Assembly: GCA_048498835.1 (NCBI GenBank)
Contig: JBEHXF010000023.1
Coordinates: 1-30,105 of the forward strand
Reading direction: 5' to 3'
Source of the DNA: Chlamydiota bacterium
GTDB taxonomy: Bacteria; Chlamydiota; Chlamydiia; Chlamydiales; SM23-39
Length of the DNA: 30,105 nt
Part shown: positions 14,097-14,247 of the stretch, in pieces
Layout of the letters: each line of letters starts with the position of its first letter
How positions within the stretch are numbered: the first letter of the stretch is position 1
The notes under the pieces: model-generated
What the model was told of the DNA's origin: nothing
The model's database searches: none
What the model saw: only the letters and a program-made list of their open reading frames with translations
Translations under genes and position numbers: made by a program

Positions 14097-14211
14097 GCAA
14101 GGAGGATTTTGGCATTTCAGTAAACCCCTCGGGTCCTCCTAGCTCTAGACTAGGAGATCGCATCGGCCTATTTACCTACAGCGGACGAGCCGCGCCACAT
14201 CACTGCCTTAC
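14097..14211 (-). ncRNA. Candidate structured 5' leader/cis-regulatory RNA of the histone-like gene
   Basis: GC-rich island beside AT-rich DNA. Nested helices GUAAGG/CCUUGC, UGGCG/UGCCA, GGUAAAU/GUUUACU and CUCCUAG/CUAGGAG, whose G-U pairs work only on the minus strand. It starts about 7 nt after a -10 box. Confidence 0.5.
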
Positions 14212-14218
14212 AATTATT

Positions 14219-14247
14219 AATATACAAAATTTTAATTATAATATCAA
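14219..14247 (-). promoter_or_regulatory. sigma70/sigma66-type promoter for the leader RNA and histone-like gene
   Basis: Minus strand TTGATA (14247-14242), 17-nt spacer, TATATT (14224-14219). Confidence 0.65.

What the first reader, a model, noticed from the sequence alone, without database searches (positions are those of the whole stretch)
14097..14247. Unrecognised ~115-nt structured RNA leader controlling the histone-like gene
Seen: a TTGATA-17-TATATT promoter places the TSS at about 14212-14211, exactly where a long-range helix starts. 5' GUAAGG..AG.GAU.UGGCG pairs with UGCCA..AUC.CU.CCUUGC. Inside are a side hairpin GCGG-cucgu-CCGC, a helix GGUAAAU/GUUUACU and an apical CUCCUAG/CUAGGAG. 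Several pairs are G-U on the minus strand but A-C mismatches on the plus strand. An alternative, mutually exclusive pairing AGGAGGA/UCCUCCU exists, and the UCCUCC tract could also pair with the downstream SD GGAG. Known: chlamydial hctA is translationally silenced by the sRNA IhtA. Inference: a new cis-acting switch or sRNA/ligand target that times nucleoid condensation. I could not match it to a riboswitch class I know.
Basis: partly seen in the sequence, partly recalled or inferred. Interest (0 to 1): 0.75.

Follow-up and report, generated by a model that had tools for sequence, protein, structure and literature searches.

The report
Conserved folded leader, chlamydial histone-like gene
In one family of uncultured environmental chlamydiae, the message for a tiny lysine/arginine-rich DNA-packing protein starts with a conserved, apparently undescribed folded RNA leader that most likely shields the message and keeps its ribosome-binding site open, and may also be able to switch translation off.

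Summary
The structure is real and conserved. Window 14211-14097 (minus strand) is the 5' leader of a 67-aa Lys/Arg-rich gene between nitroreductase and mgsA. I collected 66 leaders of this gene, from family SM23-39 genomes and metagenome contigs. Most share one fold: outer stem P1/P2 starting at the predicted +1, GC hairpin P3, and a variable or absent arm P4, with the Shine-Dalgarno 5-9 nt past P1. Covariation holds on a sequence-only alignment (15.3 independent compensatory events vs 1.2 null). Rfam has no match. A covariance model finds one copy in each of 44 of 103 family genomes and no homologue in 130 other chlamydial genomes. The gene is not hctA (which lies elsewhere); it is at best Hc2-like, so the IhtA analogy is indirect. 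The proposed AGGAGGA/UCCUCCU switch is about 0.1% populated and was not seen in relatives. Weakly conserved junctions and a dispensable arm argue against a riboswitch. Best reading (0.45): a 5'-end stabiliser that also keeps the ribosome site open. Rival (0.3): a translational switch, because the 3' strand is a latent anti-Shine-Dalgarno; no trigger or co-evolution with the Shine-Dalgarno was found. There are no expression data.

The parts
14292..14331 (-). Conserved imperfect inverted repeat (AAAAnTGCCCTCAGA...TTCTG...TTTT) at a fixed distance upstream of the start; probably a protein-binding DNA site of this promoter
   Evidence: Found by strict regex in 43 of 66 upstream regions, 42 of them at offset -111 to -114; right arm degenerate; best other site in G000 scores 19.6 vs 41.8 bits. 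Function inferred.
14242..14247 (-). -35 hexamer TTGATA (family consensus TTGTAA)
14219..14224 (-). -10 hexamer TATATT
   Evidence: the -10 was part of the retrieval pattern, so its conservation is partly selected
14206..14211 (-). Predicted +1 (G14211) and 5' strand of P1 (GUAAGG)
   Evidence: G is 96% conserved; the first predicted base is paired in 56 of 60 leaders; start site inferred
14194..14197 (-). 5' strand of P2 (UGGC; GGAG/AGAG in most relatives)
14181..14193 (-). Hairpin P3 GCGG-cucgu-CCGC, stacked on P2
   Evidence: 99.3% of cells paired, eight of ten stem positions 95% or more identical, loop variable
14177..14180 (-). Four-base junction J3/4 (UGUA; CGAA is commonest)
14119..14176 (-). 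Arm P4: basal helix GGUAAAU/GUUUACU, with apical hairpin 14156-14136; length variable, absent in some relatives
   Evidence: 7 of 7 basal pairs show changes on both sides; apex aligns loosely with a motif kept in six long leaders
14110..14118 (-). A-rich junction J4/2 and 3' strand of P2 (GCCA)
14097..14109 (-). Pyrimidine-rich 3' strand of the outer stem, ending in CCUUGC; latent anti-Shine-Dalgarno
14086..14089 (-). Shine-Dalgarno GGAG, unpaired in the intact fold
   Evidence: Invariant in 56 of 56 (the model includes it); 5-9 nt from the end of P1 in 60 of 60
13872..14075 (-). 67-aa, 52% Lys+Arg protamine/Hc2-like ORF (MMKRRKK...SAVASIMAQE)
   Evidence: no Pfam or NCBIfam hit itself; a longer orthologue (L012) hits HC2 models below cut-off
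13811..13842 (-). Conserved terminator-like hairpin (ATCGAGC...GCTCGAT, then T-run) closing the transcript, between convergent genes
   Evidence: Motif in 53 of 66 downstream regions; not flagged by the simple scan in this genome

Best explanation
A cis-acting 5' leader of a single-gene transcript for a small Lys/Arg-rich nucleoid protein. Shown by comparison: the fold P1-P2-[P3, P4] is under selection, closes at the predicted first base, and ends 5-9 nt before a strong, unpaired SD. Inferred: transcription starts at G14211. The base-paired 5' end then hinders 5'-end-dependent decay by RNase E/G, and the outer stem locks away a pyrimidine strand that would otherwise cover the SD. The result would be a long-lived, well-translated message that yields much DNA-condensing protein, while timing is set mainly at the conserved promoter and upstream DNA site. 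The arms P3 and P4 would help the stem fold or bind a helper protein.
For: The first predicted base is paired in 56 of 60 leaders, and the P1-to-GGAG distance is 5-9 nt in 60 of 60. The SD is easier to open than in shuffled leaders in 58 of 60 (median 0.5 vs 2.4 kcal/mol); folding z is below -2 in 53 of 60. Leader length runs from about 70 to 154 nt, and P4 is missing in L049, L078, L102 and L116, so the precise shape is not essential. There is no cognate advantage for SD occlusion (24 of 60). RNase E/G is encoded in G000. Stabilisation by 5'-terminal pairing is established knowledge: reference titles and a passage on RppH needing unpaired 5' bases in PMC3997798. hctB is among the most abundant mRNAs in C. 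pneumoniae (passage, PMC3333780).
Against: Simple stabilisers need no fixed sequence, yet the P3 stem is about 95% identical and an apical motif persists in six leaders scattered over the MgsA tree. The 5' GUAAG is kept in divergent leaders where it is not fully paired (L199, L202, L012, L098, L099). The outer stem is strongly polarised (77% purine on the 5' side), which a switch would also need. No Nudix protein in G000 reaches the RppH cut-off. The start site and half-life are unmeasured.
Confidence: 0.45

Rival explanations
1. Translational ON/OFF switch of the anti-anti-SD type. The purine-rich 5' strand holds the anti-SD. A trans factor (an sRNA, an RNA-binding protein, possibly the Arg-rich product itself, or 5' trimming) frees the 3' strand, which then covers the SD and stops synthesis of a protein that would be harmful if made early.
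For: Blocking the first 20 nt raises the SD opening cost from a median 0.5 to 3.8 kcal/mol. That exceeds pair-flipped controls (median 1.7) in 53 of 60, and the SD partner is the outer-stem 3' strand in 46 of 60 (sequences are related, so the p-value overstates). The 5' GUAAG is conserved even when not fully paired. Chlamydial hctA is controlled at translation by IhtA (PMC4355289 passages, PMC3469542 Discussion).
Against: Own SD tails occlude no better than foreign ones (24 of 60). In 9 of 60 leaders the SD opening cost stays below 1.5 kcal/mol even with the 5' strand blocked. No outstanding antisense partner was found among 846 G000 intergenic regions. A reference title in PMC3469542 states that Hc2 regulation is IhtA independent.
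Confidence: 0.3
2. Metabolite- or ion-sensing riboswitch built on the three-way junction (for example sensing the MEP-pathway metabolite reported to release chlamydial histones from DNA).
For: Three-way junction with a purine-rich J4/2 just upstream of the SD. The metabolite link is stated in a passage of PMC3469542.
Against: No unpaired column between +1 and the end of P1 exceeds 88% identity, and 31 different J3/4 strings occur in 56 sequences. P4 is absent in several members. There is one copy per genome, always at the same gene. No loop-loop covariation (267 of 2000 permutations as high). No Rfam match.
Confidence: 0.07
3. The P1-closed domain is cut out and acts as a separate small RNA, or is a stand-alone RNA co-transcribed with the gene.
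For: Both ends are closed by one helix, and an ancestral-looking apical motif is conserved.
Against: No U-tract follows P1; the SD follows within 5-9 nt. It is never found away from this gene among the 44 model hits in the family. The arm with the motif was lost or replaced in most lineages.
Confidence: 0.08
4. DNA-level conservation (promoter, operator palindrome) or chance folding, with no RNA function.
For: The z-score in this genome alone is modest (-2.05). The 5' end and P3 are conserved in sequence and P3 is palindromic.
Against: G-U wobbles that keep RNA pairing on the minus strand only, variable loop lengths, and tree-aware compensatory changes (15.3 vs 1.2 +/- 1.0, null maximum 6.0).
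Confidence: 0.03

Closest known systems
5'-terminal stabiliser stem-loops (E. coli ompA and papA, B. subtilis aprE leaders; named in reference titles of PMC3997798)
   Same: Base-paired 5' end followed by an accessible ribosome-binding site on a single-gene mRNA.
   Different: Here a branched domain of about 70-150 nt with a sequence-conserved hairpin and an SD-like 5' strand; no sequence relation was tested or claimed.
IhtA sRNA / hctA mRNA of Chlamydia (PMC4355289 passages; PMC3469542 Discussion)
   Same: Post-transcriptional layer at a chlamydial histone-like gene.
   Different: IhtA is a trans-encoded three-hairpin RNA between sctC and tRNA-Thr that covers the hctA start codon. This element is cis, precedes a non-hctA gene, and neither secretin-bearing contig of G000 (C2, C19) carries a tRNA-Thr.
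hctB / Hc2 of Chlamydia (Pfam PF07382, NCBIfam NF038052)
   Same: Lys/Arg-rich, low-complexity, length-variable protein; orthologue L012 scores 30.2 and 34.8 bits on these models.
   Different: Below the cut-offs (40 and 135 bits); the 67-aa window protein has no hit. The promoter is sigma-66 type here, whereas hctB uses sigma-28 (passage, PMC3333780).
Translational riboswitches and autogenous protein-binding leaders with an anti-anti-SD layout (recalled)
   Same: A three-way junction whose closing stem holds a strand complementary to the SD.
   Different: No invariant junction core, one arm dispensable, single locus, no Rfam family matched.

Membership tests
Any Rfam 15 family | Score at or above the gathering threshold | tested here: not met
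   Window: only 2 tRNAs. E-value scans of 13800-14600 and of 8 homologous loci: all matches far below gathering.
Conserved structured cis-leader (RNA motif) | Covarying base pairs beyond phylogeny | tested here: met
   A3 (26 sequences, MAFFT only): 88.6% paired, 11 of 22 pairs with double changes, 15.3 events vs 1.2 null. A6 (56 sequences, model-fitted): 20 of 22 pairs, 52.5 vs 2.8.
Conserved structured cis-leader (RNA motif) | Consistently 5' of, and in sense with, one gene family | tested here: met
   12 of 12 new model hits precede the Lys/Arg-rich ORF (11 by script, L185 read from the printed sequence); one hit per genome in 44 of 103.
5'-terminal stabiliser | Pairing begins within the first bases of the transcript | tested here: inconclusive
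   56 of 60 have no overhang, given the inferred +1; the start site is not mapped.
5'-terminal stabiliser | Removal shortens mRNA half-life | not testable with these tools
   Needs an experiment.
Riboswitch | Near-invariant unpaired core nucleotides | tested here: not met
   Highest unpaired identities 88%, 86% and 84% in 56 sequences.
Riboswitch | Alternative fold overlapping the SD or a terminator | tested here: inconclusive
   Latent anti-SD present but not co-adapted with its own SD tail; no terminator after P1.
Riboswitch | Ligand-dependent structural change | not testable with these tools
   Needs probing.
IhtA/hctA circuit | Target gene is hctA (Pfam Hc1) | tested here: not met
   The only PF07432 match is at G000:C25:2502-2666, not here.
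IhtA/hctA circuit | Trans RNA complementary to the start region | tested here: inconclusive
   Duplex scan of 846 intergenic regions gave no convincing partner; such scans miss 7-nt seeds.
Hc2 (HctB) protein family | HMM score above the curated cut-off | tested here: not met
   No hit for the window protein; L012 below cut-off; no PF07382 match in G000.
SRP Alu-like fold (resemblance recalled) | Loop-loop pairing between the two hairpins | tested here: not met
   Observed complementarity 6.52 vs 6.31 +/- 0.19 for permuted pairs; short-arm subset 4.64 vs 4.77.

The most novel reading that the evidence does not exclude
The leader is a developmental translation switch for a third type of chlamydial histone-like protein. 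The Arg-rich product (or a stage-specific RNA or metabolite) binds the conserved P3 or junction, opens the outer stem and lets the anti-SD strand shut off its own synthesis. That would be a cis-encoded feedback counterpart to IhtA.
Probability: 0.2. Interest if true: 0.75.

Novelty: new member of a known kind. Interest (0 to 1): 0.5.

Why it matters
In the papers I consulted, chlamydial post-transcriptional control of DNA packing means IhtA acting on hctA and ddbA in Chlamydiaceae, and a preprint passage says hctB, unlike hctA, is not conserved across most environmental chlamydiae. This locus shows that family SM23-39, described as represented by metagenome-assembled genomes only (PMC8242063), keeps a tiny basic protein that Pfam and NCBIfam miss, in a conserved unit: upstream DNA site, promoter, structured leader and terminator. 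The leader is a short RNA motif with 66 natural variants, including natural arm deletions, so its function can be tested directly in vitro and in laboratory reporter strains.

Tried and rejected
Sequencing runs: none was listed for window 13300-14900, so the start site and expression were not examined.
Loose structure pattern: matches were no more frequent than the reversed control; used only as a source of leads.
Protein profile of the basic protein across the phylum: found only G000 and missed known orthologues (G068, G116), so it says nothing about absence.
Two weak model hits outside the family (L190, L191; 28.1 and 25.9 bits): no basic gene and no shared fold; rejected. L136 and L166 from the pattern scans have no basic ORF; rejected.
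Apparent invariance of P1 in alignment A3 was a retrieval artefact: leaders found later by the model show GUGAG/CUCAC and other changes.
Loop-loop pairing was rejected. No trans partner was found; the top SD-region hit looks like the opposite strand of another gene's ribosome site.
c-di-AMP riboswitch: none in G000. No Euo consensus was found in the passages of PMC10653925. ESM Atlas gave only hits below 0.9 (best 0.84; 'Histone family protein' 0.83), a lead only.
Sequence and place look-ups in earlier findings returned nothing.
Literature searches (listings and abstract starts only) showed no description of this leader. Subscription papers are not covered, and 5 of 16 supplementary files of PMC8242063 were not searched.

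Full report
Setting. The window is contig C23 of an environmental chlamydial genome. One named record carrying the same kind of leader (L138) is listed under family SM23-39 in a supplement of PMC8242063, and 19 of the 20 named hits duplicate leaders already held from the window's family. I therefore take the family to be SM23-39. The finding lies on the minus strand, between a convergent nitroreductase gene (13236-13811) and a divergent mgsA gene (14583-15845), directly upstream of a 67-aa ORF that is 52% Lys+Arg (13872-14075).

Observation. In this genome alone the evidence is modest: z = -2.05 on the minus strand and -1.14 on the plus strand. The outer stem and apical hairpin are near certain in the ensemble, but the helix GGUAAAU/GUUUACU is only 2-3% populated, the AGGAGGA/UCCUCCU alternative about 0.1%, and the anti-SD fold about 4%. 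Rfam gives nothing at gathering or E-value level for the window or for 8 homologous loci.

Homologues. A DNA search hit 12 of 24 other family genomes and 0 of 16 genomes from other families. A promoter-anchored pattern that ignores structure, structure-containing patterns and region fetches gave 54 distinct leaders upstream of the orthologous basic ORF; 47 of the 54 loci also showed nitroreductase or mgsA. A covariance model built from 26 of them found exactly one hit in each of 44 of 103 family genomes (28 of 63 high-quality ones) and one in G000 even at E up to 5. The window's own leader was not in the seed and scores only 28.5 bits, so it is a divergent member. Twelve hits were new, and all precede the basic ORF, giving 66 leaders. 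In a phylum sample of 150 scored genomes, 4 hits were in the family and 2 weak hits among 130 other genomes were not homologous. None of 12 mgsA loci from other families holds such a basic gene. Deeper-branching family members keep the gene, the promoter and usually the GUAAG start, but fold differently or more simply (L012, L013, L098, L099, L199, L200, L202).

Structure. The consensus is P1 (GUAAG/CUUAC) at the predicted +1, an internal loop, P2, then a three-way junction with hairpin P3 (GCGGG/CCCGC), a 4-nt linker, arm P4 and an A-rich linker. On the sequence-only alignment A3, 88.6% of 563 cells pair and 11 of 22 pairs change on both sides; 0 of 500 shuffles reach the pairing or covariation score (5 of 500 reach the count of pairs), and slid controls give 40-54%. 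RNAalifold, unprompted, recovers P1 and the P4 base but not P2 and only a shifted part of P3. On the model-fitted A6 (56 sequences, leaning to the structure) 92.8% pair and 20 of 22 pairs covary. Counting events on a tree gives 15.3 compensatory changes against 1.2 +/- 1.0 (maximum 6.0 in 5000 draws) for A3, and 52.5 against 2.8 for A6. In A3 these events fall mostly in P4; P1 and P3 rest on conservation, wobble changes and the later members. P4 varies from absent to about 70 nt. Six long leaders share an apical motif (a bulged AA next to a short stem with an NNUA loop); the five of them placed on an MgsA tree of 37 sequences fall in four separate places, which suggests an ancestral module lost several times. 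The window's apex aligns loosely to it but does not match the motif.

The gene. It is not hctA: Pfam Hc1 matches only C25:2502-2666. It has no Pfam or NCBIfam hit; a longer orthologue scores below cut-off on both Hc2 models. DdbA is described as about 18 kDa (passage, PMC8343073), so it is not that either. 'Histone-like' therefore rests on composition and weak Hc2 likeness; DNA binding is inferred. The unit is bounded by a conserved -35, a conserved upstream inverted repeat at a fixed distance (43 of 66 by strict pattern) and a conserved terminator-like hairpin (53 of 66).

Mechanism tests. These used 60 of the 66 leaders. I dropped four with a different fold (L012, L013, L098, L099) and two whose start codon my script mis-picked (L164, L185). 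In the intact fold the SD is open: median opening cost 0.5 kcal/mol against 2.4 for shuffled leaders, lower in 58 of 60. The first predicted base is paired in 56 of 60, and P1 ends 5-9 nt before GGAG in all 60. If the first 20 nt are blocked, the cost rises to 3.8; this exceeds pair-flipped controls in 53 of 60, and the SD partner is the outer-stem 3' strand in 46 of 60. So a latent anti-SD exists family-wide. However, a leader occludes its own SD tail no better than a foreign one (24 of 60, a test of low power because the SDs are alike), and no convincing antisense partner appears among 846 intergenic regions. Unpaired positions are loosely conserved (at most 88%), and loop-loop pairing does not covary.

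Reading. Shown: a selected RNA fold in the leader of one gene, with an open SD just outside it. Inferred: the start site, the gene's role in DNA packing, and the function. The fixed features are a paired 5' end and a fixed gap to an open SD, while the interior is free to shrink. That fits best a stabilising, ribosome-site-presenting leader (0.45), by analogy with 5'-terminal stem-loops (reference titles and one passage, PMC3997798); RNase E/G is present, a clear RppH is not. The conserved P3 sequence, the conserved 5' bases and the purine/pyrimidine polarity keep a factor-triggered translational switch alive (0.3). A riboswitch (0.07), an excised RNA (0.08) and a DNA-only explanation (0.03) are unlikely. 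The two leading models are not exclusive.

Novelty. Earlier AI notes on RNAs at histone-like genes in other phyla prompted the partner search but are not evidence. Papers seen: PMC4355289 (passages), PMC3469542 (passages and Discussion), PMC3333780, PMC8343073, PMC10653925, PMC3997798 and bioRxiv 2024.11.28.625222 (passages), PMC8242063 (passages and supplement rows). Verdict: a real, apparently undescribed, family-restricted RNA motif of a known kind (structured mRNA leader); interest 0.5.

Noticed in passing
window 14292-14331: Conserved imperfect inverted repeat at a fixed offset upstream of the basic gene's start across the family; probably a site for an unknown DNA-binding protein. Weaker look-alikes in G000 at C31:20092, C14:2503-2542 and C40:18535-18574.
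   Followed up: partly
G000:C1, minus strand, starts at 48482 and 48229 (L215): Two more small Lys/Arg-rich ORFs in tandem (61 and 66 aa) without this leader. The first has its SD predicted inside a hairpin and a possible sigma-54-like sequence upstream (consensus recalled).
   Followed up: partly
window 13811-13842: The terminator-like hairpin is unusually conserved in sequence across genera (53 of 66), with compensatory changes in its upper stem.
   Followed up: partly
L002:1436, L003:1419, L006:1245, L088 (minus, 1568), L105:682, L178 (minus, 1241): Shared apical module (bulged AA beside a stem with an NNUA loop) in long leaders of six genomes; it may be a protein-binding or tertiary-contact site.
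   Followed up: partly
L013, L098, L099: Divergent family members with longer, more Hc2-like proteins place the second hairpin after the outer stem, next to the SD, instead of inside the junction.
   Followed up: partly
G017, many contigs: A 27-nt sequence starting TAAGG(T/A) and ending GCGGCTA..GCCGCT recurs at least 13 times in one genome, probably a repeat or mobile element.
   Followed up: no
G023:C93:9816-9853, G059:C3:9713-9750, G101:C10:129458-129495 (L056-L058): A similar stretch (TAAGGAGG...ACGCGGCTAAA.CCGCC) occurs in three genera; not examined, may be coding.
   Followed up: no
window 15903-17312: 469-aa ORF after mgsA with no Pfam or NCBIfam hit.
   Followed up: no
L164 (metagenome contig): An upstream in-frame ATG overlaps the 3' strand of P1 and would add eight basic-rich residues; probably not the true start.
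   Followed up: no
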